DNA of 13,661 nucleotides from Sphingobacterium griseoflavum (GCA_052039425.1 JBQGED010000156.1:1-13661), one strand, 5' to 3'. Numbered from the stretch's first letter, positions 202 to 10,968 are shown. Notes: generated from the letters alone by a model not told the origin. Translations and numbers: made by a program.

Positions 202-3200
202 TCAGCTCGGCTTCGGATCAGGCTTGCGCGGTTCGCGTAATTGTTTTTTCTGCTCCGCCAATTCCTTTTGAATTTTGAGTTCGATATCCGCCAGCTGCTT
301 GGAGATGTCCTGCATTTTGTAATGGGTACGCAGATCGATTTCCAGCTTTTTATCCATACTGCGCACAATCGGATACAGGCTCTGCTCGATGGACGCGGTT
401 AATGTCTCCAGCAATTTATCGAGGCCGGGCACCGGCTGGTTGATCACTTCCACATTGGGGCGATTGGCGGCAATCGTGTTTTGGATTTTGCCGACCAGGT
501 CGAGCAGAAGTTTTTGCTGCTCTTCCTGACGACGTTTCTCCACTTTTGCGTCGCTTTCTGTGGTACTCGGTGCGCGCGCGGTTTCTGCCAAGTCGCGCAC
601 GCCGCCGACGAGATCAGCGAGTTGCACCACGATTTTACTGCCGGTATCCGCGTCGTCCCCGCCCATGGCTTTGTTGCGCAGAAAATCCGCTTTGATCTGC
701 TCCCAGCGGGCTTTTTGTTCCGCCGTGAGCGCGCCGCGAATTTCCGCCAGTTTCAGTAGATTTTCCTCCGCACCGGAAGTCAGTAATTGCGCTTCGCCGA
801 GATAGTGATCGGCGATCATCTGCTGCAGCTCCTGCTCGTTCATCACCGACGCAATCTTTTCCGCCATCTTGTTCATATTGCGATAACTGCCCTGCAATTT
901 GAACGGCGGTTCTGTGCGGTATTTTTCCGCCTGTGCCGCGGAAACGATGTACTGGCGATTCACCTTCATAACGATATCCCGCACCATAAATAGCTTGCGC
1001 AGCACATCGACAATTTCGCTGACTTCCGCCGCGCTGTAGCTGTGGGATAAATCGGTGGTGGCGATATTTTCGCCCTGCGCCATTTTGACAAACTTGTACA
1101 GATCCTGCAGATCCCGCGTCGCGAGCGGTGCGAGAACCGGATTGGAAGTGAGGCAGTTTTCGATATAGCTCAGCTCAAACTGTTCTTCCATGCCGCCGAG
1201 AATATCACCGAGGTTATAAATATCCGCGCGGTTGGCCAGCATATCCGGAATTTTGAACACCTCACCGGATTCCGTATAAGGGTTGCCCGCCATCACCACG
1301 CAGAATTTGCGTCCGCGCATATCGTAGGTCTTGGTTTCGCCGCGCCAAACGCCCTCGATACGGCGGGTGCCGTCACACAGGGAAATAAATTTCTGCAGAA
1401 ATTCCGGATGGGTGTGCTGAATATCATCGAGATAGAGCATCACGTTATTGCCCATCTCCAACGCCAGATTGAGCTTGTTCAACTCCTGGCGCGCAGTGGC
1501 GTTGGGCGCCTGCGCGGGATCGAGGGACAGCACATCGTGACCGAGCGCCGGGCAGTTAATGCGCATAAAAATCAGCCCCAGGCGATTGGCCACATATTCC
1601 ATCAAAGTGGTTTTACCGTAGCCCGGTGGCGAGATCATCATCAACAGACCCATAAGGTCCGAGCGCTTATTTTCGCCGACCGTACCCATTTGCTTGGCGA
1701 GGTTATCGCCGATAATCGGCAAATAGGATTCGGTAATCAGCCAGTTGCGCACAAATGAGGTGAGCGGCCGCGCCTTAAAATCTTGCAGGCGCAGCTGGCG
1801 GCGCTGGCCTTCGACAAACTGCTGGCGCGCGGCGAGAAAACGGCGATAGGCTGGAATAAATTCTCTGCGGTGGCGCTCCACCTTTTCCAAAAAGGCATCC
1901 ACCGACAATGACAGACTGCGCTCTTTGATCAATGCATGCTCACCGAGCAGACCCTCAATGCGAAATTCCAGATCGATCTGAGTCATTCTGCGGTCGAGGC
2001 GCTGATCGGCATTGAGCAACGCTATGGCTTCAGGAATATAGCGACGCAAATGCTGCAAGCCGCGATTTTCCACCATGGCGGAAAACCAAGCCTGGGATAG
2101 ATCCCAACGGGCGGAGGGCAATCCAACCAATTTATCCAACGCGCTTTGATAGCGACGCCAGGCCGCATCGTCCAAGGAGCGGCGCAATTCCTCCGTCAAT
2201 ATCTGCGCATAGCGGCTGCCAATAAATTCCAGCCGTTCGCGGCCCAATTCCAATACCAGATATTCGGCGGCGCGCACCCTTGTCAGCGCATTGATCGGCA
2301 GTGGATGCGCTTCGACAAATGCCGCCATAGCCGCTTGAATTTCCCGCGCAAGAATATCCGCCGCTTGCTGGCTGCCAAAGACACGCTGCATATGCGCAGC
2401 GGACTGCGCCCGTTCGCTCCAGGTTTGCCAATTCATAGGAGTTTTGATTTGCGCGGAAAAGGATTCCAGATTGGCCCAGAATTTCTGCGCAAAACCGCGA
2501 CTCAATGGATCAAAGCGCAATAAATCCGCCTGTTCAAGCGCTGGCAATAACGTTTGCAGAATCAGCGCGGCATCGTGATCGTGAATACCTTTTTCATAGC
2601 CTTCGCGGTAACGCTGGGCGGCATAATCCCGCACCAAGCGTTGCATGGCAGCCGAACCGAGCAAGGCACTTTTGAGCTGCTCACTATTGAGCCCGTCAGT
2701 ATTGTGCTCTGCGGCGTAAATGATGCTGGCGGCAAGATATTCCGCCCGATAAATATCCGGGCTTTCCGACTCCAAGGTCACGGTCCAAAACGCTTTGAGC
2801 TCATTCAAAGCCGGGTCGTCGACCTGCTGGTAATATTCCGTACCGGTGAGATGGAGATACAGGGAATCCTGGCGCGGAATCAGGGTGAGATCCAATTCCT
2901 GCGTATTGACGCTGAATTTATGCCGTGGCCCGAGTTTGACCACATTGCCGCCGGCTTCAAATAAATCGCTTTTATCACGCAGGGAGCGCGCGCCTTGATC
3001 GCGAATACTTTTGAATTTCGCCTCCACGTCATCCGCTTTGACGGCGTTATCCAGTTCGCGCAACTGGGCGACAAATTCGCGCACCTTTTGCACCATGGCG
3101 TCGGCTGCGAAAAACGTATTCAGCTGCTGCGCGTCGGTAAATTTCTGCGCGCGCCGTTCGATGCTGGTGAGCACCCGCGACGCAGCATCCACCACTGCCT

Positions 3201-5523
3201 GCGCCTTGCGCTGGCGCTCGTCGAGCAATTGCTGTTTGTGTGCCTCAAAGGTCTCGTAAATTTCCTCGCGCTTGGCAACTATATCGGCGAGAAATTCCTC
3301 GCGGTCGGCAAACTGGCTTTCCAATTCCTCCAACTGCACCAGCAGGCGTGCCATTTGTTCATCGCAAGCCTCGGGTGTGGAAGCCAGACCTATGGCATTG
3401 GCGATGCTTTGGGACAGCAATTTAAATTGCGCGCCGAACTGCGCCACCGCCTCCGCCGAACCAAAACTTTTTTGTTTGTGCCCCGCCTGTGCTTTGCATT
3501 GATTCAACTTGGCGTATACCGCCGCTATGCCATCAATAATGCGCGTATGGACCGTCGCGTCGCCCACTTTGAGCGTAGCCAATAATTCGGTCAACAAATC
3601 CAGACCGGAAGCCATGCTGTCAATCTGCTGCAACAGCGGCGCAAGTTCAGCGACGGTCGTAACAACGTCCAGATCGCGATAAAACTGCTCGATGCGCTCC
3701 TCGTAGGGGCGCAAGGCGCGCTCGTCCGCGAGAAAAGCCACGGTTTTCTCACTGATGGCATTTTGCTGTTCCAACAGCTGCTGTTCCAGTTGCTCGATGC
3801 GAGCGACGTCAATGTAGCGGTGATCGCGAATGGTGGCGAGATGACCGCGCTGGCGGCGGATTGCATCCAGTGCGCGTACGTGATCGTCGGTGGTTTCCCA
3901 ATTCGATGTTCGGATAAACGCCAGCAGCTGATTTTGCTGCTGCTCCGCGCCCGCCAGTGCTTGCACGGATTGCTGGCGAATATTTTCGACTTTTTCAAAT
4001 TCGTCGATGGCCAGTTCGGCGGTTTTGCCAATTTCCGACAACAGCGGTTTCAAGCTGGCAGTGTCGGCGTCGCCAATCCAATAATGATCATCAAAAATCT
4101 TCAGTGCGGCTTTGCGCAATTCTTCATAGAGACGCAAAGTCACCGATTGGTTATCGATAATGCGCGCTACCGCAAATAAATCCGCGATGCCACGCACCAG
4201 CTCCGCATTGCCGACGCGTCCCAGAAATGTCTGTTTGGGCGGTTCGCGGCTGGCATGCTCCGCACTGAAAAACGGCGTGCGCCACACCTGCATGGGATGA
4301 ACCCTTGTCGGCTCCGGCACCGCGGCAAAAATGACCAGCGTGCCGTCTTCGGCCAAGGCATAACCATCACCGTAAATCGGATTCTGCAGGGTTTTGTTAA
4401 TCATGTTGTAGGCGAAAAGGCCCACCAACCCCGCCTTGGCCTCATAAAATACGTAGAGCACATCCTCGCCGTTGGGCGAGCGGATCATGCGGCTGAACAA
4501 CATGTCACGACTGCCGTCATCAAACGTTTTGTACTGTCCCGTCTGCAAATAATAGCCTCCGGGAAAAACAATGCCGTGATCCTCCGGCAACTGCACACAG
4601 GACGCGCCTATGGCGTCTATGCGTTGAACTTCGCGGGTGAGCTTATTGAAAACCAGATAGCGCCACGCGGTTTCGCGGTAAGGCAGAATTTTCAGCAGAA
4701 TCAAACTGCCGAGTTCGGCATACCAGAATTCACCATCGTCGATAGACTGATTGAGATCTTCCACCGGTTCGCGATAAATACCGAGACCGCTCTCGGTATT
4801 GTTTTCGATTTTTACCGTGAGGTCGCCACCGACGGTTTCAACGAAAATCTGATTGAGAATATTGACGTGTGGATGTTTGCCGTTGACCACCTGATCGCGA
4901 GTGGTTTTAGTCCATTCGAAATCAAATGCCGGTGGCAGTTGAATATCGCGTTCACCGCGATTGTCGATGTAGATTACCTGCTTCGCATCCGCAGACAGAT
5001 TCCAACGAAACACCCGCATGTCGCTGCGCCGTTCGCCAATCTGGAATGCTGCCAATAATTTGCCGTTGCGCACTGCGAGCTGCACCAAATGCGTATGCTT
5101 GTAGTAGCGGTACAACTCTTCGAAGTCTCGCTGAAACGCAGGTTCAGTGAGAAAAGTGCCGGCGAGAGGAATTTCCTGCATCGCGGCATCATCACCGCTC
5201 CCTTCAAGCCGGAATAATGCAAAAACGTCGGCGACGCGAGTTTCGGTTTTCAAGCCGAGAAAAACGTTATAGCCGAACAGCAAAACATTCCCGACCTGAA
5301 CTATGTCGCGAGGAATGCAATTATTTTCCGTGCGCACGCGGACGCGCGCTGCGACCGCCATTTCCGAATGGCCGAATTCCCCCAGCCGCGCCTGGTTGAG
5401 TGCTGAGGTGAGGATTTTGAGTTGTTCGCCCTGCTCGGTCAGACGCCGCCGAATGATGTCATAGGCACCACCTTCCGCCACCGCTTGGTCAAATTGAGAA
5501 TTATCCGGATCTATGACCGCCAT
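202..5523 (-). CDS. Giant (about 1773 aa) multidomain AAA+ ATPase: N-terminal beta-rich domain, long coiled-coil region, MoxR/AAA_5-type ATPase core, C-terminal helical tail
   Basis: Continuous ORF. The ORF track starts at a TTG (5565). The first ATG is 14 codons downstream (plus-strand CAT at 5521-5523), preceded by AGGGA 7 nt upstream, and is taken as the start. AAA+ motifs by eye: Walker A ISPPGYGKTTL (codons at about nt 1609-1638), Walker B VMLYLDDIQ, sensor/second region VVMAGNP…IPDMLANRADI. These align motif-for-motif with MoxR (GVPGVGKT / LLADEINRA / VIATQNP…LDRF). Residues about 470-1250 are A/E/Q/R/L-rich helical repeats. Residues about 15-465 are beta-rich (e.g. GDGYALAEDGTLVIFAAVPE). 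Confidence 0.85.
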   Translation of the reverse strand: MAVIDPDNSQFDQAVAEGGAYDIIRRRLTEQGEQLKILTSALNQARLGEFGHSEMAVAARVRVRTENNCIPRDIVQVGNVLLFGYNVFLGLKTETRVADVFALFRLEGSGDDAAMQEIPLAGTFLTEPAFQRDFEELYRYYKHTHLVQLAVRNGKLLAAFQIGERRSDMRVFRWNLSADAKQVIYIDNRGERDIQLPPAFDFEWTKTTRDQVVNGKHPHVNILNQIFVETVGGDLTVKIENNTESGLGIYREPVEDLNQSIDDGEFWYAELGSLILLKILPYRETAWRYLVFNKLTREVQRIDAIGASCVQLPEDHGIVFPGGYYLQTGQYKTFDDGSRDMLFSRMIRSPNGEDVLYVFYEAKAGLVGLFAYNMINKTLQNPIYGDGYALAEDGTLVIFAAVPEPTRVHPMQVWRTPFFSAEHASREPPKQTFLGRVGNAELVRGIADLFAVARIIDNQSVTLRLYEELRKAALKIFDDHYWIGDADTASLKPLLSEIGKTAELAIDEFEKVENIRQQSVQALAGAEQQQNQLLAFIRTSNWETTDDHVRALDAIRRQRGHLATIRDHRYIDVARIEQLEQQLLEQQNAISEKTVAFLADERALRPYEERIEQFYRDLDVVTTVAELAPLLQQIDSMASGLDLLTELLATLKVGDATVHTRIIDGIAAVYAKLNQCKAQAGHKQKSFGSAEAVAQFGAQFKLLSQSIANAIGLASTPEACDEQMARLLVQLEELESQFADREEFLADIVAKREEIYETFEAHKQQLLDERQRKAQAVVDAASRVLTSIERRAQKFTDAQQLNTFFAADAMVQKVREFVAQLRELDNAVKADDVEAKFKSIRDQGARSLRDKSDLFEAGGNVVKLGPRHKFSVNTQELDLTLIPRQDSLYLHLTGTEYYQQVDDPALNELKAFWTVTLESESPDIYRAEYLAASIIYAAEHNTDGLNSEQLKSALLGSAAMQRLVRDYAAQRYREGYEKGIHDHDAALILQTLLPALEQADLLRFDPLSRGFAQKFWANLESFSAQIKTPMNWQTWSERAQSAAHMQRVFGSQQAADILAREIQAAMAAFVEAHPLPINALTRVRAAEYLVLELGRERLEFIGSRYAQILTEELRRSLDDAAWRRYQSALDKLVGLPSARWDLSQAWFSAMVENRGLQHLRRYIPEAIALLNADQRLDRRMTQIDLEFRIEGLLGEHALIKERSLSLSVDAFLEKVERHRREFIPAYRRFLAARQQFVEGQRRQLRLQDFKARPLTSFVRNWLITESYLPIIGDNLAKQMGTVGENKRSDLMGLLMMISPPGYGKTTLMEYVANRLGLIFMRINCPALGHDVLSLDPAQAPNATARQELNKLNLALEMGNNVMLYLDDIQHTHPEFLQKFISLCDGTRRIEGVWRGETKTYDMRGRKFCVVMAGNPYTESGEVFKIPDMLANRADIYNLGDILGGMEEQFELSYIENCLTSNPVLAPLATRDLQDLYKFVKMAQGENIATTDLSHSYSAAEVSEIVDVLRKLFMVRDIVMKVNRQYIVSAAQAEKYRTEPPFKLQGSYRNMNKMAEKIASVMNEQELQQMIADHYLGEAQLLTSGAEENLLKLAEIRGALTAEQKARWEQIKADFLRNKAMGGDDADTGSKIVVQLADLVGGVRDLAETARAPSTTESDAKVEKRRQEEQQKLLLDLVGKIQNTIAANRPNVEVINQPVPGLDKLLETLTASIEQSLYPIVRSMDKKLEIDLRTHYKMQDISKQLADIELKIQKELAEQKKQLREPRKPDPKPS

Positions 5524-5577
5524 ATTTTTTCCCTGTATGTGTGCTGCATGGAATGCGGGACTCAATGTGCAGAATCA

Positions 5578-5606
5578 GCGCCGCCACGCTCGCTGCAGGG
5601 CGGCGC
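5578..5606 (-). other. GC-rich hairpin in the 89-nt gap between the flotillin gene and the giant ATPase gene
   Basis: GCGCCGCC (5578-5585) / 13-nt loop / GGCGGCGC (5599-5606). No U-run follows, so it is not a canonical terminator. It could be an intra-operon stability or processing element. Confidence 0.3.
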
Positions 5607-5612
5607 CGGATA

Positions 5613-7586
5613 TTAACCGGCTGTCAAGTCGGTTGCGGAGTTGGTAGCGTTGCCCGTAGCCTTGTGGCCGGTGAGGGAGAGGACGCTTTCCAGAATATTG
5701 GCGATGGTACTGCTCTTGGTGGCAAGGCCATCCACCGCTTTGCCGATGGAAAGCGATTTGGCGAAATTGTCGAAGAAATGCTCTTCACCGCCGACAATAT
5801 CGATTTTCGCTTTCGCCAATGCGGTGGCGAGCACCTCGGCATTTTCCTTGGCAATTTCTTTGCCCGCCTCGATGGACGCAATCGCTTCTTTGAATGCGGT
5901 TTCCAACGTCATGCGGAATTCTTCGTGCTGACGTGTCTGCTCACTCATTTGGCTCATGGCAGTAAATTTATCTTCCAGACCATCGGCCTCTGCCTTGTAT
6001 TTCTCGCGCACCACTTCGGCTTCGGCGATACCCACCTGACGTTTGGCCAGTGCTTCCGACTCGCCGCGCAGCGCGACAACCTTCGCTTCCGCTTCACCGG
6101 TATTTTTGATGACGTTGGCGTCGGCCTCACCTTTGGCCGCAATTACGCGCGCTTCCGCCAGCCCTTCTTTTTCCATAGCGTCGGCCTTGGCTTCCTGCAC
6201 TTTGGCGGCCGCCAGTCCTGGGGCGGCTTGTTCAGCCTGCACACCTTCGGCCATTTTCTTCTTGGCGTCGGCTTCTTTTGCGGCGGCGTCGAGGCGCGCC
6301 TGAGCCAGCGTGGTAATTTCCACAGATTTGTGTTTCGCCGCCAATTCTTCGGCTTCCGCCGCTTTCACCTGTTTGACTTTCTCTTCTTCCGCAGAAGCCT
6401 GAGCTTCCAATACCTGGATTTGGCGGCGGCGATCCGCCTCGGACACTTCGCGCACTTCTTTGATTTTTTCTTCCTCGATGGCGACGGTTTTGTCCACCGC
6501 AACGCGCTCGCGGATCACGTTGGCAATTTCCTTGCGCTCGATTTCGATGGCTTTTTCCGCTTCTATTCGCTGGATTTCCACTTCGCGTTCGCGCGATACA
6601 ATTTCCAGGTCGCGGGCGCGAGTGACTTTTTCCTGCTCGATCACCACAGCGCGCTGGCGATTCTGCTCGGCCACCTCCACTTCGCGCTTCTGATTTTCCG
6701 TCTGTACCAACAGTTCCTGGTCCACTTGAATGGTGGCGGACTGAGCTTTTTTACGCTCCTCTTCCTGCACGCGTTTCGTCTCAGCCTGTTCGCGAGCCTG
6801 AATAGTGGCAATTTCGCGCGCTTGGCGTGCTTCAGCATCTTTTTGCTGACGCTCAAGCTCCAACATGGCTTCCGTGGTTTCCACGTTTTTCTTTTTGATC
6901 GCCAACTCTTCGTCGCGTTCGAGCATATTGGTCTTGATATTCTGCTGCGCGGTCAATTCGGTGATTTTGCGAATACCTTCGGCGTCGAGAATATTGTGTG
7001 GATCAAGCGAGCTTTTCGGCGTCTGCTCGAGATAGTCGATGGCCACGTCCTCCAACACATAACCATTCAAGTCGTTGCCGATCACCTGAATGATTTTGTC
7101 ACGGAAATCCTGCCTGTCTTGAAACAGGCGGACAAATTCAATTTGTTTACCAACAGATTTCAGGGCTTCGGAAAACTTGGCGTTGAACAGCTCATTCACG
7201 GCGTGTTTGTCCGACGCGCGGCTGGCACCCAGCGACTTGGCGACTTTCAGCACGTCTTCCGGGGTTTCATTTACGCGCAGATAAAAAGCGACAGTAATAT
7301 CCGCGCGCATATTGTCGGCACAAATCAGGCCGTCTTTGCCGCGCCTGTCCACCTCAAGCGTGATCAGCGATATTTTCATCAATTCTTTTTTATGAATAAC
7401 AGGCCACACCCACGCACCGGTAAAAAATACCTTCGGGCGGGAAGTGGTGTCGTTCTTGATCAACGCAGTCCCCTGCTCGACCTTGATATAAAAGGCCTTG
7501 GCCAAAGCGGCAATCGCGATCAGCGCAAGAATGAGGATACCGACCACGGTCAATATCATCAGGAAAACTGGGGTGGATTCAGACAT
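5613..7586 (-). CDS. SPFH/band-7 flotillin-family membrane protein (YqiK-like), 657 aa, with an unusually long Ala/Glu/Lys-rich coiled-coil
   Basis: ATG at 7584-7586 with AAGGAG 5-10 nt upstream. N-terminal TM helix (VFLMILTVVGILILALIAIAALA). SPFH core motifs resemble E. coli YqiK (…LITLEVDRRGKDGLICADNMRADITVAFYLRV…). A long EA/KA-rich helical region follows. Stop is TAA at 5613-5615. Confidence 0.9.
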   Translation of the reverse strand: MSESTPVFLMILTVVGILILALIAIAALAKAFYIKVEQGTALIKNDTTSRPKVFFTGAWVWPVIHKKELMKISLITLEVDRRGKDGLICADNMRADITVAFYLRVNETPEDVLKVAKSLGASRASDKHAVNELFNAKFSEALKSVGKQIEFVRLFQDRQDFRDKIIQVIGNDLNGYVLEDVAIDYLEQTPKSSLDPHNILDAEGIRKITELTAQQNIKTNMLERDEELAIKKKNVETTEAMLELERQQKDAEARQAREIATIQAREQAETKRVQEEERKKAQSATIQVDQELLVQTENQKREVEVAEQNRQRAVVIEQEKVTRARDLEIVSREREVEIQRIEAEKAIEIERKEIANVIRERVAVDKTVAIEEEKIKEVREVSEADRRRQIQVLEAQASAEEEKVKQVKAAEAEELAAKHKSVEITTLAQARLDAAAKEADAKKKMAEGVQAEQAAPGLAAAKVQEAKADAMEKEGLAEARVIAAKGEADANVIKNTGEAEAKVVALRGESEALAKRQVGIAEAEVVREKYKAEADGLEDKFTAMSQMSEQTRQHEEFRMTLETAFKEAIASIEAGKEIAKENAEVLATALAKAKIDIVGGEEHFFDNFAKSLSIGKAVDGLATKSSTIANILESVLSLTGHKATGNATNSATDLTAG

Positions 7587-7627
7587 GGTAGTGCTCCTTT
7601 CTTAATGAAACTTTATTTTGAAAATCC

Positions 7628-7661
7628 GCTAATTGTGGAAATCTGCTAATTGTGGAAATCT
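7628..7661. repeat. Perfect 17-bp tandem duplication (GCTAATTGTGGAAATCT x2) straddling the stop codon of the NfeD/YqiJ-like gene
   Basis: Copy 1 is at 7628-7644 and copy 2 at 7645-7661, followed by a partial third start (GCT). The downstream (higher-coordinate) copy encodes the C-terminal EADFHN* of the minus-strand gene. The other copy lies in the 3' intergenic region before the flotillin RBS. Confidence 0.85.
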
Positions 7662-8308
7662 GCTTCGGAGACGACGCGATATACGTTTTCGCCCGCGACA
7701 TATTCCAGCAGTACGACTTTATCGCCGCGCTTAAAACTTTCATCCTTATAGGCGCGAACTTTGACGATCAACCCCGCCCCGCCGTCTTCAACATAGGCCT
7801 CGCCGAAATTGCGATTGACTTCACCTGTGCGCACTGTTGCCACTTGACCGAGGACCTGCTTCTGAACCTCCTGGTTGGTCGCAACGAAAATTGGGCGTAA
7901 AGGTTTGATCAATACGGCGGTTATTAAGGCAGCGACATACAGCGCCGCGATAATGACCGGTATTCCGAGCAGCAGCTGCAACCAGCGGAAAGGCACAAAG
8001 GGGTAAATAAAAAACACCACCAGAAAACACAGCATCCAACCGCTCAGGGAAATCAGGGAGATAACGATGGTGATTGGCACGCCGTTGAGGCCGAGGCGAA
8101 AAAGCAATCCGGAGAAGACATTCAAACTCGTCACTGAATCGGCGGCGTCCATATCCAGATCAAATGCCTCAATGCCGACAAATCCCAACATGGTCAACAG
8201 CCAATACGCCACCGACAAAATCAGGAAAAAAGTAAAGAACACCGTAGGAAAGGAAAAAATGATGTTAAGAAAAATATCCATTTGATCGCTCAGCAATATG
8301 GCAAACAT
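7646..8308 (-). CDS. NfeD-family inner-membrane protein (YqiJ-like): multi-TM N-terminal part plus C-terminal OB-fold beta domain
   Basis: ATG at 8306-8308 preceded by AGGAAGGA. Three to four hydrophobic segments (FFTFFLILSVAYWLLTMLGFVGI; LISLSGWMLCFLVVFFIYPF; LLLGIPVIIAALYVAALITAVLI). C-terminal GQVATVRTGEV…GDKVVLLEY is typical of the short NfeD OB-fold. The position immediately upstream of a flotillin gene matches the yqiJ-yqiK arrangement. Confidence 0.8.
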   Translation of the reverse strand: MFAILLSDQMDIFLNIIFSFPTVFFTFFLILSVAYWLLTMLGFVGIEAFDLDMDAADSVTSLNVFSGLLFRLGLNGVPITIVISLISLSGWMLCFLVVFFIYPFVPFRWLQLLLGIPVIIAALYVAALITAVLIKPLRPIFVATNQEVQKQVLGQVATVRTGEVNRNFGEAYVEDGGAGLIVKVRAYKDESFKRGDKVVLLEYVAGENVYRVVSEADFHN

Positions 8309-8426: not shown

Positions 8427-9113
8427 TTATTTCTTTTGTTTCAGCCGCTCTAGGATGTCCTGGGCGCTGGAGCCGTTGGAAACGATTCCCGCTTTCTCAA
8501 GTTTGCGCTGCAGATGGTCTTCGCTGGTTTCCTGAGCGAGTTCCGTGGCGGCTTTCATTTGCGCGGATTTCTGCGCTTGTTTTTCTTTAATGCGTTCAAG
8601 AGATTCCATAGCGGTCTGCAATTTGGAATTGGAGCCACTGTGACGCTCGGCCACTGCGGCCTGGGCGCGCTGAACATTTTCCGTGGCTTTTACCGTATCC
8701 ACCTGCTGTTTCAGACGCTTGATATTCTGTTCGGCCTGCTTGACCGCCTCGCGCAGCTGATTGGCGCTGCCGGCAAACTCCTGAGCCATCGCCTCTTCAT
8801 TGCGCAACTGATTCTCGAAATCCGCAATTTTTTGTGCGACCTCCAACGCGAGCGCATCTTCGCCTTTGCTCAACGCCTGGGTCGCGTAACCCTCGTGCTT
8901 AGCAATTTGCTCGCGCAATTGCTGGCACTTTTCCTCCGCCAGTTTTTGCCGCGCGATTATGGCCGCGAGGGAGTCCTTGCTCTGGCGCAACTCCTCCGAC
9001 GCATCGCGCACTTCCTGGTCGAGAATTCTCAACGCCTGGGTGTCCACGATCGCCTCGCCCACTTCCGTGGCTCCACCGCGCAGGGCGGTAATCATTTTGG
9101 CCCATATATTCAT
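8427..9113 (-). CDS. PspA/IM30 (ESCRT-III superfamily) protein, YjfJ-like, 228 aa
   Basis: The ORF track begins at an upstream ATG (9140). I place the start at the ATG at 9111-9113 (MNIWAKMITALRGG…) because GGAG lies about 7 nt upstream and overlaps the stop codon of the preceding gene. The sequence is all-helical and heptad-rich. The C-terminal motifs VKATENVQRAQAAV… and AGIVSNGSSAQDILERLK closely match E. coli YjfJ as I recall it (VVKATEAMQRAQ…AGIGGSNKSSAQDVLARLQ). Confidence 0.85.
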   Translation of the reverse strand: MNIWAKMITALRGGATEVGEAIVDTQALRILDQEVRDASEELRQSKDSLAAIIARQKLAEEKCQQLREQIAKHEGYATQALSKGEDALALEVAQKIADFENQLRNEEAMAQEFAGSANQLREAVKQAEQNIKRLKQQVDTVKATENVQRAQAAVAERHSGSNSKLQTAMESLERIKEKQAQKSAQMKAATELAQETSEDHLQRKLEKAGIVSNGSSAQDILERLKQKK

Positions 9114-9123
9114 AGTCGATCTC

Positions 9124-9774
9124 CTAGGCTTGCGCCTCATTGGGGGTTTTCAAAAAATCCGCATAGGCCTCAGTCGCCTGAATGACGTTCGACGCGAGCA
9201 CCTCAATTTCAAACACTACATTGGCGAGTTCGGAGGCGGAACTCAGGGCACCAAACATATGGTAGTAGTCTTTGCCGTGCGCGAGCGTGTCCAGACTGAT
9301 GGTGGAGAGCGGAAAATATTTATGAGTCCGCAACACCGCATCGTTGAGCCCAACCTGATCAATCACATCGTCCGCAGACCAGAGCACCGACTCTGCAATA
9401 ATCTGATCTCCCGCCACTGTCACAAATACGGGCAGATCGCCGTACTCGTGCATGGTGATATGGAGCGCCGGTTCGACGCCGTCGATCAACGCCAAGGTCG
9501 CCTTGTGCTCGCGGAACAGAGAGGCTCCCTGCAGCGCATCGAACAAAGATTCGGTCGTCCAAGTGTTGGCTGATTCGATCATCATTTTTCCTCCGATGGT
9601 GGCCAAGTCGAGCGTATCGACGGTTTCGCGCAATTGCTTTTCCACATGGGCAAGCAACTTCGCATTTTCCGGGCGAATCCAAACCTCCTTTTTCACCAGA
9701 CCGCTGTCGCGCAGTCGCTTGCGGAATTCCCTCTGGTAGTGGGCGGACGATTTCGCTTTCATGAGACGAACCAT
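9124..9774 (-). CDS. Two-part protein: N-terminal about 63-aa DUF3018-like (ribbon-helix-helix/antitoxin-like) segment in frame with a DUF2170/YjfI-like (YbjN-type chaperone-like) domain; first gene of the operon
   Basis: ATG at 9772-9774 (AAGAAGG just upstream). The N-terminal segment KSSAHYQREFRKRLRDSGLVKKEVWIRPENAKLL resembles DUF3018-type small DNA-binding proteins as I recall them (…SAERMRAYRARLRAAGLRPVQIWVPD…). The C-terminal about 150 aa (…YHMFGALSSASELANVVFEIEVLASNVIQATE…) fits the YjfI/DUF2170 family, which sits directly upstream of yjfJ in E. coli. There is an internal in-frame ATG-ATG at 9585/9582 with a perfect GGAGG 4 nt upstream. Stop is TAG at 9124-9126. Confidence 0.6.
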   Translation of the reverse strand: MVRLMKAKSSAHYQREFRKRLRDSGLVKKEVWIRPENAKLLAHVEKQLRETVDTLDLATIGGKMMIESANTWTTESLFDALQGASLFREHKATLALIDGVEPALHITMHEYGDLPVFVTVAGDQIIAESVLWSADDVIDQVGLNDAVLRTHKYFPLSTISLDTLAHGKDYYHMFGALSSASELANVVFEIEVLASNVIQATEAYADFLKTPNEAQA

Positions 9775-9779
9775 ACCTT

Positions 9780-9839
9780 CTTACATGTAATCTTGTAAAT
9801 ATCATCACATGTAATATTTTGGAATAGATTACATGTGAT
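9780..9839. promoter_or_regulatory. Three operator-like copies of a 12-bp palindrome (consensus ATTACATGTAAT) with centres exactly 24 bp apart, directly upstream of the minus-strand operon
   Basis: Copies at 9780-9791 (CTTACATGTAAT), 9804-9815 (ATCACATGTAAT) and 9828-9839 (ATTACATGTGAT). Each has one mismatch to the perfect palindrome. ACATGT cores are at 9783, 9807 and 9831. The proximal copy ends 6 bp from the start codon and overlaps the RBS. The region is AT-rich. Confidence 0.55.
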
Positions 9840-9940
9840 ACCAAACGGCGAGTTTACACAGATTTCCTCACCCTGTTGCTTCTTATATATCCCTAAGGCA
9901 AAACCCACTGTTGTCGCTACGGCTGCGACGGGCGTAAACC

Positions 9941-9969
9941 TTGACAGCTAGGGACCGTCCCCCTAGCAT
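9941..9969 (+). promoter_or_regulatory. Candidate sigma70 promoter for ispB
   Basis: Perfect -35 TTGACA (9941-9946), 17-bp spacer, -10 TAGCAT (9964-9969), about 35 nt before the ispB ATG. Divergent from the minus-strand operon. Confidence 0.4.
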
Positions 9970-10005
9970 CCACCCCCAATTTCCGACCAACCAAGATTCC
10001 CGCCG

Positions 10006-10968
10006 ATGCTGCCGTTTCAACAAGCTGTCGCCACCGACTTGTCTTTGGTGAACGACATGATCATCAAAGAACTGCATTCCGAAGTCGGCCTGGTGGAAAA
10101 TATAGGCCACTACATAGTGGATGCCGGCGGCAAACGCCTTCGCCCCATCCTGGTTCTACTCACCGCACGCTGCCTGGAATATCCCAAACAGCGCCATATC
10201 GATCTGGCGACCATCATCGAATTTATTCACACCGCCACACTGCTGCACGACGATGTGGTCGATATGTCAGCGCTGCGCCGTGGCCGCCCCACGGCCAACG
10301 CCCAATTCGGTAATGCGCCGAGTGTGCTGGTGGGTGACTTCCTTTATTCCCGCGCGTTTCAGATGCTGGTGCGCCTGGGCAGCATGGAGATCATGGCGAT
10401 CCTGTCCGACACCACCAACGTGATTTCCGAAGGTGAAGTCCAACAGCTGATTAACGCCAAAAACCCTTCGGTGAGCGAGCAGGACTATCTGACCGTTATC
10501 CATAAAAAGACGGCAGCCTTGTTTGAGGCGGCATGTCGCACCGGGGCGGTTCTGGCTGGAGCCGGGGAAGAGCAGAAACAGGCGGCTTTTTTGTTTGGCC
10601 ATCACCTGGGGCTGGCATTTCAGTTGATCGACGATCTGTTGGATTACGAAGGCGATCAGGCGGCGCTAGGAAAAAACATTGGCGACGACTTGGCAGAGGG
10701 CAAACCGACACTGCCGTTGATTCACGCCATGGCACACACCGAAGGCGCCGAACAGGAGCTGATCCGCGACGCCATCACCAACGGCAGGGTCGATCATCTG
10801 GCCGATATTGTGGCGCTGATCCGTCGCTGCGGCAGTCTCGACTACACCCGGCGCAAAGCCCAGGAGCACGCTCAAAAGGCGGAACTCGCTCTGGGCGCAT
10901 TGCCCGACAACTCCTGGCGCAAGGCGATGGAGGAACTCGCCCGCTTTTCGGTTACCAGAGCCTATTGA
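10006..10968 (+). CDS. ispB: Octaprenyl-diphosphate synthase (trans-polyprenyl diphosphate synthase)
   Basis: 320 aa and near-collinear with E. coli IspB. Shared features: GGKRLRP, first DDxxD LLHDDVVD, second DDxxD QLIDDLLDY, GKNIGDDLAEGKPTLP, CGSLDYTRRKA. Confidence 0.93.
   Translation: MLPFQQAVATDLSLVNDMIIKELHSEVGLVENIGHYIVDAGGKRLRPILVLLTARCLEYPKQRHIDLATIIEFIHTATLLHDDVVDMSALRRGRPTANAQFGNAPSVLVGDFLYSRAFQMLVRLGSMEIMAILSDTTNVISEGEVQQLINAKNPSVSEQDYLTVIHKKTAALFEAACRTGAVLAGAGEEQKQAAFLFGHHLGLAFQLIDDLLDYEGDQAALGKNIGDDLAEGKPTLPLIHAMAHTEGAEQELIRDAITNGRVDHLADIVALIRRCGSLDYTRRKAQEHAQKAELALGALPDNSWRKAMEELARFSVTRAY

What the first reader, a model, noticed from the sequence alone, without database searches (positions are those of the whole stretch)
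9780..9839. Triple 12-bp palindrome ATTACATGTAAT phased at exactly 24 bp upstream of the operon
Three near-perfect copies (one mismatch each) of a 12-bp perfect palindrome have ACATGT cores at 9783, 9807 and 9831. The proximal site overlaps the RBS of the first gene.

Palindromic symmetry implies a dimeric regulator. Three regularly spaced sites imply cooperative binding or filament formation along 60 bp that would occlude both promoter and translation start.

No sigma54 -24/-12 element (TGGCAC-N5-TTGCA) was found. A classical PspF-dependent arrangement is therefore unlikely. I could not find a convincing sigma70 -35/-10 pair either, so the actual promoter is undefined.
Basis: seen in the sequence. 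Interest (0 to 1): 0.6.

Follow-up and report, generated by a model that had tools for sequence, protein, structure and literature searches.

The report
Conserved operator in leaderless bacA promoter
The three palindromes are real and deeply conserved repressor-type binding sites built into the promoter of a membrane-stress (PspA-like "bac") operon. They are most likely bound by an overlooked N-terminal domain of the operon's own first protein, BacA, whose message starts directly at its start codon.

Summary
Sites lie at 9780-9791, 9804-9815 and 9828-9839, exactly 24 bp apart, and are the only matches in the window.

They are functional. TYACATGTRA occurs 183 times in 645 kb around 80 orthologous loci, and every copy lies within 130 bp upstream of the orthologous gene. 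P. aeruginosa, Lysobacter and divergent lineages have the same sites.

On the minus strand it reads -35 TTTACA (9799-9794), site 1 inside the 17/18-nt spacer, -10 TATGGT (9775-9770), 7 nt, then ATG (9762). There is no RBS, so the mRNA is leaderless. A published P. aeruginosa PA14 TSS falls exactly on the A of the orthologous ATG. No sigma54 element is present.

The gene is the homologue of BacA (PA3732). It carries a nearly invariant ~47-aa N-terminal domain absent from the crystallised protein, weakly similar to MazE-like antitoxins and to plasmid repressor UrfF. E. coli and Citrobacter YjfI lack both the domain and the sites.

Best model: BacA autorepresses by binding 2-4 operators around the -35 element. 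Binding itself is inferred, not shown.

Novelty is moderate: an ordinary kind of element, but undescribed for this system, and it corrects published annotation.

The parts
9780..9791 (.). Operator site 1 (O1), ATTACATGTAAG on the minus strand. It spans -29..-18 relative to the predicted TSS and lies inside the -35/-10 spacer.
   Evidence: The ACATGT core sits at this position in 76 of 81 promoters, with the -35 at -10..-5 and the -10 at +13..+18 relative to the core.
9804..9815 (.). Operator site 2 (O2), ATTACATGTGAT on the minus strand. It spans -53..-42, immediately upstream of the -35 hexamer, and is the most constantly present site.
   Evidence: It is also present in the lineages that lost O1 (Hahella L030 and L040; L045).
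9828..9839 (.). Operator site 3 (O3), ATCACATGTAAT on the minus strand, spanning -77..-66. It is an accessory site present in about one third of orthologous promoters.
   Evidence: 25 of 80 promoters have three sites.
9794..9799 (-). -35 hexamer TTTACA. The alternative register is TTACAA at 9793-9798, which gives a 17-nt spacer.
   Evidence: TTTACA-18-TATGGT. Column conservation is T 95%, T 75%, G 55%, A 68% in the orthologues. TTGACA-like hexamers appear in 83 promoters.
9770..9775 (-). -10 hexamer TATGGT.
   Evidence: The TAnnnT columns are T 80%, A 83% and T 88%. The hexamer lies 6-7 nt before the ATG in 73 of 83 promoters.
9760..9762 (-). ATG start codon of bacA and predicted transcription start (the A at 9762). 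This makes the mRNA leaderless.
   Evidence: Start codon placed by alignment of homologues. It is ATG in all 80 loci; in L017 the ATG lies four codons upstream of the aligned position. The published PA14 TSS at 1374599 equals the A of the orthologous ATG. An SD-like tetramer occurs in only 4 of 83 promoters.
9622..9762 (-). BacA N-terminal domain (residues 1-47, MKAKSSAHYQREFRKRLRDSGLVKKEVWIRPENAKLLAHVEKQLRE). It is the candidate DNA-binding module.
   Evidence: Nearly invariant across homologues. AF2 gives helix 6-19, an extended segment 20-30 and helix 31-51, pLDDT 84.5. Weak similarity to UrfF plasmid repression protein F (13 of 18 relatives, best E 1.9e-5) and to PF11455 MazE-like.
9151..9564 (-). 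BacA DUF2170 domain (CesT/T3SS-chaperone-like).
   Evidence: Pfam PF09938, E 1.9e-50. It aligns to PDB 8q8o, the P. aeruginosa BacA crystal construct.
9124..9762 (-). bacA coding sequence (212 aa plus stop), first gene of the operon.
   Evidence: NCBIfam NF050185 'biofilm formation regulator BacA', 305.2 bits against a cut-off of 300. Homologue P0001 is 212 aa.
8427..9113 (-). bacB, a PspA/IM30-family protein. Its likely start is the ATG at 9113, preceded by a canonical AGGAG that overlaps the bacA stop codon.
   Evidence: Pfam PF04012, E 1.9e-48, with the domain starting at residue 11 of the longer ORF. Sequence read.
7646..8308 (-). bacC-like membrane protein (220 aa) with no Pfam hit. It occupies the same operon position as the 213-aa gene in P. 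aeruginosa.
5613..7586 (-). bacD-like long coiled-coil membrane protein (657 aa), flotillin-like.
   Evidence: weak FloT similarity, E 5e-4. Operon type described in PMC11237479.
202..5565 (-). Large DUF3686/DUF7902 AAA+ ATPase (about 1,770-1,787 aa; exact start codon not resolved).
   Evidence: Pfam PF12458 E 4e-199, PF25472 and AAA. The orthologue follows bacD in P. aeruginosa.

Best explanation
The three palindromes are operators of the sigma70-type promoter of a bacABCD-type operon on the minus strand. That operon encodes a DUF2170 protein, a PspA-like protein, a membrane protein, a flotillin-like protein and an AAA+ ATPase.

The promoter reads -35 TTTACA, a 17/18-nt spacer, -10 TATGGT, 7 nt, then ATG. 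Transcription therefore starts at or next to the A of the start codon, and bacA is translated from a leaderless mRNA.
- O1 fills the -35/-10 spacer.
- O2 abuts the -35 on its upstream side.
- O3 lies one more repeat upstream.

A symmetric dimeric protein bound at O1 and O2 would exclude RNA polymerase. The most likely binder is BacA itself, through its nearly invariant ~47-residue N-terminal helix-strand-helix domain. Two such domains would pair to read one 12-bp palindrome, and adjacent sites would be linked through dimerisation of the C-terminal chaperone-like DUF2170 domain. The result would be negative autoregulation of the whole operon.

The DUF2170 domain is predicted by others to bind the PspA-like BacB. 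That would let the free pool of BacB tune repression, a sigma54-independent analogue of PspA-PspF feedback.

Shown here: the sites, their conservation and exclusivity, the promoter geometry, the absence of an SD, the absence of sigma54 elements, the presence of the N-domain, and the coincidence of the published TSS with the ATG in P. aeruginosa.

Inferred: that BacA is the binding protein, that binding represses, the stoichiometry, and the role of BacB.
For: - Sites and exclusivity: (window). All 183 TYACATGTRA matches in 645 kb of 80 orthologous loci lie at -130..0 of bacA.
- Wider conservation: the same sites occur in P. aeruginosa, in Lysobacter, P. piscis and E. mendocina, and in two divergent BacA lineages.
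- Promoter geometry: the -35 lies at -10..-5 and the -10 at +13..+18 relative to the O1 core. The spacer is 17 nt in 71 of 83 promoters, the -10-to-ATG distance is 6-7 nt in 73 of 83, and an SD-like tetramer occurs in 4 of 83. An independent scan finds TTTACA-18-TATGGT.
- Contrast within the operon: bacB has a canonical AGGAG.
- Leaderless start: Wurtzel 2012 Table S3 puts the TSS at 1374599, 177 nt before the old PA14_16140 start. That is 59 codons, so the TSS falls on the A of the ATG of the 206-aa protein.
- N-domain: it is nearly invariant, is part of NCBIfam BacA model positions 1-47, and is absent from the crystallised 146-aa protein 8q8o. Stand-alone relatives of 46-70 aa exist in phage/MGE-like contexts. 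Similarity to UrfF and PF11455 is sub-threshold.
- Negative controls: E. coli and Citrobacter YjfI lack the N-domain, and their loci lack the motif.
- No alternative regulator in cis: no conserved neighbouring gene lies upstream of bacA in 70 loci; the largest cluster covers 10 loci.
- Experimental hint: Bac proteins rise 6-13.5-fold in a P. aeruginosa bacA::Tn mutant.
- BacA-BacB: the interaction is predicted with AF2 probability 0.981 in PMC13092808.
Against: - No binding experiment exists.
- The N-domain matches no curated DNA-binding family above threshold.
- Its predicted monomer has no significant structural neighbour in PDB or BFVD, so the fold class is unresolved. The predicted element order (helix, extended segment, helix) is not that of a canonical ribbon-helix-helix.
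- The P. aeruginosa mutant is a MAR2xT7 transposon insertion. Its outward transcription could by itself raise the downstream proteins.
- The negative controls come from a single enterobacterial clade.
- Only about 4 kb on each side of bacA was examined, so a global regulator with further sites elsewhere in these genomes is not excluded.
- Paired TTACATGTRA sites occur in many unrelated metagenomic contexts; only 6 of 80 listed loci carry bacA.
- At 24-bp spacing, adjacent sites are about 100 degrees out of helical phase.
Confidence: 0.66

Rival explanations
1. The sites are operators for a different trans-acting regulator encoded elsewhere in the genome, for example a stress-responsive repressor or activator with a wider regulon. 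BacA's N-domain would then have another role.
For: The N-domain has no above-threshold match to any DNA-binding family and no structural neighbour. Only about 8 kb per genome was searched for further sites. The transposon mutant data are confounded.
Against: The motif and the N-domain co-occur in every one of about 90 loci examined across Cellvibrionales, Pseudomonadales, Oceanospirillales, Methylococcales and Xanthomonadales. Both are absent from the N-domain-less yjfI loci. No other gene is conserved next to the sites. Both the domain and the operator core are nearly invariant, as expected of a matched pair.
Confidence: 0.17
2. The sites bind BacA or another factor, but the net effect is activation or a dual switch. 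O2, centred at -47.5, and O3, at -71.5, would recruit RNA polymerase, while O1 acts only at high occupancy. This resembles lambda cI at PRM.
For: O2 is the most constant site and lies just upstream of the -35, where activators often sit. Some lineages (Hahella L030 and L040; L045) keep only the upstream sites and lack O1. The -35 and -10 hexamers are often imperfect.
Against: O1 sits in the spacer in 76 of 81 promoters, a position typical of repression. One divergent lineage has only O1. The published proteomics point to negative control.
Confidence: 0.1
3. The palindromes act at the RNA level, or are chance or structural AT-rich repeats (hairpins, an attenuator, an RBS-masking stem, a methylation or restriction target).
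For: Each site can self-pair, and sites 2 and 3 form a larger 17-nt inverted repeat. ACATGT-containing palindromes are abundant for unrelated reasons in some metagenomic contigs.
Against: The sites lie upstream of the predicted TSS, and upstream of the mapped TSS in P. aeruginosa, so they are not in the bacA mRNA. No Rfam family matches. The sequence, not merely the pairing potential, is conserved: the core is invariant in 185 sites. The position is fixed relative to the -35 and -10. The sites persist in genomes of 40-69% GC.
Confidence: 0.03

Closest known systems
P. aeruginosa bac (biofilm-associated cluster) operon and BacA (PA3732 / PA14_16140; Mace 2008, Wallart 2024, PMC10948618)
   Same: It is the same protein family (NCBIfam NF050185 above its cut-off) with the same gene order: DUF2170, PspA-like, membrane protein, flotillin-like, DUF3686 AAA+. 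The operator/promoter layout is also the same: TTACATGTGA, TTGAAA, TTACATGTGA, TAGTGT, 6 nt, ATG.
   Different: The published work describes BacA as a 146-aa chaperone-like protein, proposes a sigma54 promoter, and names no DNA-binding domain or operator. Here the protein is 206-212 aa with an extra N-domain, the promoter is sigma70-type and leaderless, and the operator is defined.
Classical Psp regulation (PspF sigma54 activator inhibited by PspA)
   Same: A PspA-family effector operon appears to be under feedback control by a protein predicted to bind the PspA-like product.
   Different: There is no -24/-12 element, and none of the six window proteins scanned against Pfam is an enhancer-binding protein. 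The control element is a repressor-type operator inside a sigma70 promoter. The regulator is a chaperone-like protein with a small N-terminal domain, not an AAA+ activator.
Small dimeric plasmid/phage repressors with operators inside the promoter (Arc and Mnt of P22, CopG, omega; ribbon-helix-helix class). This comparison rests on general knowledge.
   Same: A short domain of about 45 aa contains a central beta-like segment. The palindromic or repeated operators of about 12 bp overlap the -35/-10 region, occur as several adjacent sites, and give autoregulation.
   Different: The predicted order of elements is helix, extended segment, helix rather than strand-helix-helix. No Pfam RHH hit and no structural match was obtained. 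Here the domain is fused to a T3SS-chaperone-like domain.
Pfam PF11455 MazE-like antitoxin (formerly DUF3018) and NCBIfam NF041430 UrfF 'plasmid repression protein F'
   Same: They share the sequence pattern of a basic helix, G-L/F-V, x-K-E-V-W-I/V-x-P. Stand-alone relatives of the BacA N-domain score 21.1 bits against PF11455, whose cut-off is 22. 13 of 18 relatives match UrfF, best E 1.9e-5.
   Different: All matches are below the curated cut-offs. The window domain itself does not hit PF11455. No toxin gene is adjacent.
Leaderless autoregulator mRNAs (lambda cI from PRM, Tn1721 tetR). This comparison rests on general knowledge.
   Same: The first gene is a putative repressor whose mRNA starts at the AUG, so its own synthesis could stay low, while downstream genes have normal SD sequences.
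   Different: Here the leaderless gene heads a five-gene, roughly 9.5-kb operon of a gammaproteobacterial chromosome, and the design is conserved across several orders.
T3SS chaperone-based regulatory switches (ExsC-ExsE-ExsD-ExsA; IpgC-MxiE; SicA-InvF). The fold relation is cited in PMC10948618.
   Same: A CesT-like chaperone domain whose occupancy by a partner protein could set transcriptional output.
   Different: In those systems the chaperone acts on a separate AraC-type regulator. Here the putative DNA-binding module is fused to the chaperone domain itself, and no secretion system is involved.

Membership tests
BacA / YjfI-type regulator of bac operons (NCBIfam NF050185) | Full-length match at or above the curated cut-off | tested here: met
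   305.2 bits against a cut-off of 300, covering model positions 1-204 of 206.
BacA / YjfI-type regulator of bac operons (NCBIfam NF050185) | DUF2170 (CesT-like) domain followed by a PspA-family gene, a membrane protein, a flotillin-like protein and a DUF3686 AAA+ ATPase in one operon | tested here: met
   Pfam hits and gene order in the window match P. aeruginosa L082 and L083.
Repressor operator embedded in a sigma70 promoter | Conserved symmetric sites overlapping or abutting the -35/-10 elements | tested here: met
   O1 lies inside the 17-nt spacer and O2 abuts the -35. The positions are fixed in 76 of 81 promoters.
Repressor operator embedded in a sigma70 promoter | A protein protects the sites and represses transcription | not testable with these tools
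   There is only indirect published evidence: a 6-13.5-fold rise of Bac proteins in a bacA::Tn mutant. This is confounded by the transposon.
Leaderless mRNA | Transcription start at, or within a few nt of, the A of the AUG | tested here: inconclusive
   There are no transcript data for the window organism. For the P. aeruginosa PA14 orthologue, the published TSS at 1374599 coincides with the A of the ATG. In the window the -10 ends 7 nt before the ATG.
Leaderless mRNA | No Shine-Dalgarno sequence, and an AUG (not GUG or UUG) start | tested here: met
   An SD-like tetramer occurs in 4 of 83 promoters. The start codon is ATG in all 80 loci. bacB in the same operon has AGGAG.
sigma54 / PspF-dependent psp-type promoter | -24/-12 element TGGCAC-N5-TTGCW upstream of the first gene | tested here: not met
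   There is no match with up to 3 mismatches on the coding strand in window 9763-10005, nor in L083 5697-6000. The mapped PA14 TSS fits the sigma70-type -10 instead.
sigma54 / PspF-dependent psp-type promoter | An enhancer-binding protein (PspF-like AAA+ activator) encoded nearby | tested here: not met
   None of the six window proteins scanned against Pfam is a sigma54 activator. No conserved upstream neighbour exists in 70 loci. A distant gene cannot be excluded.
Ribbon-helix-helix DNA-binding superfamily | An N-terminal beta-strand followed by two helices, with recognisable sequence or structure similarity to RHH proteins | tested here: not met
Pfam PF11455 MazE-like antitoxin (ex-DUF3018) | Score at or above the gathering threshold of 22 bits | tested here: not met
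   The window N-domain gives no hit. The best stand-alone relative, P0299, scores 21.1 bits, E 3e-4; four others score 12.5-17.5 bits. This is remote similarity only.

The most novel reading that the evidence does not exclude
BacA would be a single-polypeptide 'repressor-chaperone'. A previously unrecognised small DNA-binding fold (helix-strand-helix, shared with MazE-like antitoxins and small plasmid/phage repressors) is fused to a CesT-like domain that holds the PspA-like BacB. N-domain pairs would read each palindrome, and DUF2170 dimers would link neighbouring sites, forming a short protein chain along 2-4 operators. Capture or release of BacB during membrane stress would switch DNA binding. 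This would be a sigma54-independent Psp-type feedback loop that is widespread in Gammaproteobacteria and starts from a leaderless mRNA.
Probability: 0.3. Interest if true: 0.72.

Novelty: new variant of a known kind. Interest (0 to 1): 0.56.

Why it matters
The bac operon affects biofilm formation, rhamnolipid production, swarming and virulence in P. aeruginosa. Its regulation is unsolved: BacA is called a 'possible regulator' with no known DNA-binding part, and a sigma54 promoter has been proposed.

This analysis supplies four concrete, testable pieces.
- A defined operator, ATTACATGTAAT, present 2-4 times.
- A sigma70 leaderless promoter.
- A corrected 206-212-aa BacA with a candidate DNA-binding N-domain that the crystal construct (146 aa) lacked.
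- A reinterpretation of a published '177-nt 5' UTR' as coding sequence.

It also offers a compact model for how PspA-like membrane-repair modules that lack PspF are controlled, across at least five orders of Gammaproteobacteria.

Tried and rejected
1. Structure of the N-domain.
- The full-length monomer model gave pLDDT 38-55 over the N-terminal ~70 residues.
- The RHH idea is therefore unconfirmed.

2. Sequence searches with the N-domain.
- A profile search against PDB gave nothing.
- Direct Pfam and PHROG scans gave only noise-level hits; phrog_536 'transcriptional regulator' scored E 0.035.

3. Specificity or regulon test by a metagenome scan for paired sites.
- Only 6 of 80 listed loci carry bacA.
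- The rest are unrelated: satellites, palindrome-rich contigs, and other operators.

4. Operators near stand-alone N-domain homologues.
- No consistent motif was found. There is a single TCACATGTGA just downstream of the gene in L088 and a one-mismatch site in L089.

5. Literature search for the motif sequence found nothing relevant.

6. Two top 'hits' to the N-domain, P0241 and P0243, are repetitive proteins and spurious.

7. sigma54 was rejected.

8. An RNA-level role was rejected, because the TSS lies downstream of the sites and there is no Rfam hit.

9. The 9774 ATG (MVRL...) was rejected as the start. Homologues begin at MKAKSS, and the -10 hexamer overlaps 9774.

Full report
**1. Observation**

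The window contains three sites:
- CTTACATGTAAT at 9780-9791
- ATCACATGTAAT at 9804-9815
- ATTACATGTGAT at 9828-9839

Each has one mismatch to the perfect palindrome ATTACATGTAAT. The ACATGT cores start at 9783, 9807 and 9831. These are the only matches with up to 2 mismatches in 13,661 bp. The expected number is 0.22, and 1 of 200 shuffles reached three. The repeat finder independently reports three copies with 24/24 spacing.

**2. Context**

The sites lie in the 243-bp gap between two divergent units.

On the minus strand runs a five-gene operon:
- a DUF2170 protein (9124-9762)
- a PspA/IM30 protein (8427-9113)
- a 220-aa membrane protein
- a 657-aa flotillin-like coiled-coil protein
- a roughly 1,780-aa DUF3686/DUF7902 AAA+ ATPase

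On the plus strand are ispB (10006-10968) and then pgi.

The first protein passes the NCBIfam equivalog model 'biofilm formation regulator BacA' at 305 bits against a cut-off of 300. The locus is therefore a Cellvibrionaceae version of the P. aeruginosa bac operon. Its nearest relatives are a Cellvibrionaceae MAG (90%), Marinagarivorans (89%) and Saccharophagus (85%). This operon class was catalogued in a PspA comparative-genomics study (PMC11237479).

**3. Phylogenetic footprinting**

I fetched 80 orthologous loci from one-genome-per-species contigs. They cover Cellvibrionaceae, Oleiphilaceae, Hahella, Bacterioplanes, Methylococcales and others.
- ACATGT cores occur at about -25 and -48 from the start codon in essentially all loci, and at about -70 in about a third.
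- TYACATGTRA occurs 183 times in the 644,567 bp. All 183 copies are within -130..0 of bacA and none is elsewhere, against about 3 expected.
- The site logo from 185 sites is (T)A-T-T/c-ACATGT-A/g-A-T, with an invariant core.
- Promoters carry 2 sites (52 cases), 3 (25), 4 (1) or 1 (2).
- Spacing between sites 1 and 2 is 21-24 bp in 72 of 78 promoters.

The same sites occur in more distant lineages:
- P. aeruginosa
- P. piscis, E. mendocina and Lysobacter (69% GC)
- two divergent BacA lineages
- six metagenomic bacA loci

**4. The promoter**

I aligned the orthologues on the proximal core. This shows a -35 hexamer at -10..-5 (T 95%, T 75%, G 55%, A 68%; consensus TTGACA). It also shows a -10 hexamer at +13..+18 (T 80%, A 83%, T 88%; TAnnnT). 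The spacer is 17 nt, and O1 fills it.

Across 83 promoters:
- the spacer is 17 nt in 71
- the -10 ends 6-7 nt before the ATG in 73
- only 4 have an SD-like tetramer

In the window the minus strand reads ATCACATGTAAT(O3)-12 nt-ATTACATGTGAT(O2)-gata-TTTACA-ag-ATTACATGTAAG(O1)-aagg-TATGGT-tcgtctc-ATG. The scan tool independently reports TTTACA-18-TATGGT at 9799..9770.

The start codon is the ATG at 9762 (MKAKSS...), as in all homologues, and not the ATG at 9774. By contrast, bacB has a canonical AGGAG 7 nt before its ATG.

**5. Experimental support for the leaderless start**

Wurtzel et al. 2012 (PMC3460626, Table S3, TU 841) mapped the TSS of PA14_16140-16150 at 1374599. That is 177 nt upstream of the then-annotated ORF start at 1374776.

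The current 206-aa P. aeruginosa BacA (P0123) has the old start at Met60, which is 59 codons or 177 nt downstream of Met1. The distance from Met60 to the end of bacB is 1,153 nt both in that table and in locus L083. The mapped TSS is therefore the A of the full-length ATG.

The sequence there is TTACATGTGA-gctg-TTGAAA-tc-TTACATGTGA-tctcg-TAGTGT-gagtcc-ATG. The reported '177-nt 5' UTR' is in fact the coding sequence of the N-domain.

**6. No sigma54 promoter**

TGGCAC-N5-TTGCW has no match with up to 3 mismatches on the relevant strand, either in the window intergenic region or upstream of P. aeruginosa bacA. The sigma54 site proposed by Wallart et al. is not supported by sequence or by the mapped TSS.

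**7. Who binds the sites**

BacA homologues share a nearly invariant N-terminal segment, K-S/T-SAHYQRE-F/Y-R-x-RLREQGLVKKEVWI-x-PE...L...E..LR. A variable linker follows, and then DUF2170.

The P. aeruginosa crystal structure (8q8o, 146 aa) covers only DUF2170 and aligns to residues 65-206 here. The published paper mentions no DNA-binding region.

Evidence on the domain itself:
- Searched alone, it finds 73 representatives among 1.8 billion. These include stand-alone proteins of 46-70 aa in phage/MGE-like gene neighbourhoods.
- The stand-alone relatives reach 21.1 bits against Pfam PF11455 'Antitoxin MazE-like' (ex-DUF3018), whose cut-off is 22.
- 13 of 18 relatives match NCBIfam UrfF 'plasmid repression protein F', best E 1.9e-5.
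- AF2 predicts helix 6-19, an extended segment 20-30 and helix 31-51 at pLDDT 84.5. This is compatible with a strand that pairs in a dimer.
- No structural neighbour was found, so the fold class remains open.

Three circumstantial points link the domain to the operator:
- They co-occur in every locus examined.
- E. coli and Citrobacter YjfI (133-134 aa, no N-domain) have no such site within 8-12 kb.
- No other gene is conserved next to the sites; the largest upstream-neighbour cluster covers 10 of 70 loci.

Experimentally, a PA14 bacA::MAR2xT7 mutant accumulates BacB to BacF 6-13.5-fold. Transposon read-through could contribute to this.

**8. Mechanism proposed**

BacA would autorepress the operon.
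- An N-domain dimer on O1 (-29..-18) occupies the spacer.
- A second dimer on O2 (-53..-42) abuts the -35.
- O3 (-77..-66) adds cooperativity.

DUF2170 dimerisation, seen in the crystal, together with the flexible linker, could bridge sites 21-24 bp apart even though they are not in helical phase.

BacA is predicted to bind the PspA-like BacB (PMC13092808). The free BacB pool could therefore modulate repression, which is functionally analogous to PspA-PspF but without sigma54. The leaderless start may keep BacA synthesis low relative to the SD-bearing downstream genes.

The binding protein, the sign of regulation and the role of BacB are all inferences.

**9. Rivals**

- Another trans-acting regulator: possible, about 0.17.
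- Activation or a dual switch: about 0.1.
- An RNA-level or chance explanation: largely excluded, because the sites are upstream of the TSS, their sequence (not merely pairing) is conserved, and no Rfam family matches.

**10. Specificity caveat**

A metagenome scan for paired TTACATGTRA sites returned mostly unrelated contexts; 6 of 80 listed loci carry bacA. The motif is therefore not unique in the biosphere. Whether bacA-bearing genomes have additional sites is untested beyond about 4 kb on each side.

**11. Verdict**

This is a real, strongly conserved operator array inside a sigma70-type, leaderless promoter of a BacA/PspA-like operon. The kind of element is ordinary. It had not been described for this system, however, and it corrects the annotated protein length, the crystallised construct, the '5' UTR' and the sigma54 proposal. 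It makes the regulation of bac operons directly testable.

Novelty: new variant of a known kind. Interest: about 0.56.

Noticed in passing
L083:6001-6177 (P. aeruginosa); window 9586-9762: The crystallised P. aeruginosa BacA (PDB 8q8o, 146 aa) and the older PA14_16140 annotation start at Met60 of the 206-aa protein. They therefore lack the conserved N-terminal domain. The '177-nt 5' UTR' in Wurtzel 2012 Table S3 is this coding segment.
   Followed up: yes
L133, L139, L142, L145, L156, L096 (metagenome contigs): Some contigs of 38-44% GC carry 4-12 copies per 7-14 kb of TTTACATGTAAA-type palindromes, commonly the 14-bp form CTTTACATGTAAAG. They lie both inside and between genes, far above chance. 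No BacA N-domain is encoded on these contigs. This looks like an over-represented genomic palindrome of unknown role.
   Followed up: partly
L091:1487-1517, L093:1028-1058, L151:3353-3381: High-GC contigs (65-67% GC) carry two GTTACATGTAAC palindromes 19-21 bp apart. In L091 and L151 an ATG follows about 15-20 nt downstream (with an SD-like AAAGGAG in L151), and no BacA N-domain is present. They may be operators of a different regulator with a similar half-site.
   Followed up: no
L104:2-191, L111:647-1362, L115:288-392, L160:1443-1572: These are tandem arrays with a 20-bp period, each unit containing TYACATGTRA. They are satellite-like repeats unrelated to bacA.
   Followed up: no
window 9941-9969 (+): A good sigma70-like promoter (TTGACA-17-TAGCAT) sits about 37 nt before the ispB start. 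It is presumably the divergent ispB promoter. It lies about 100 bp from the nearest palindrome and so is probably not controlled by the sites. ispB is not a conserved neighbour of bacA.
   Followed up: partly
window 9111-9126 (-): bacB most likely starts at the ATG at 9113 (MNIWAKM...), not at 9140. Its AGGAG Shine-Dalgarno overlaps the bacA TAG stop codon, which suggests translational coupling of bacB to bacA.
   Followed up: partly
window 9804-9839: Sites 2 and 3, together with their flanks, form a larger imperfect inverted repeat: 17-nt arms, 88% complementary, 2 nt apart. It is mostly a consequence of two palindromes placed side by side.
   Followed up: no
window 5541-7649 (+), 8514-9185 (+), 2995-3585 (+): Long open reading frames run antisense to the flotillin-like, PspA-like and AAA+ genes; the longest is 702 aa. 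Their translations are rich in F, L and R. They look like by-products of E/K/A-rich coiled-coil coding sequence on the other strand rather than genes.
   Followed up: no
L030, L040, L045 (Hahella and a Cellvibrionaceae MAG): These promoters keep the two sites upstream of the -35 but have no recognisable site in the spacer. L085 shows the opposite, with only the spacer site. The operator layout is therefore not uniform and may reflect different regulatory set-points.
   Followed up: partly
L088:179-188: A stand-alone 46-aa homologue of the BacA N-domain, in a phage-like gene row, has a perfect TCACATGTGA 13 nt after its stop codon. This is a single case and may be chance.
   Followed up: no
PMC10948618 (methods): The published 'delta-bacA' strain is a MAR2xT7 transposon insertion. 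The 6-13.5-fold rise of the downstream Bac proteins could partly reflect outward transcription from the transposon rather than loss of repression.
   Followed up: partly
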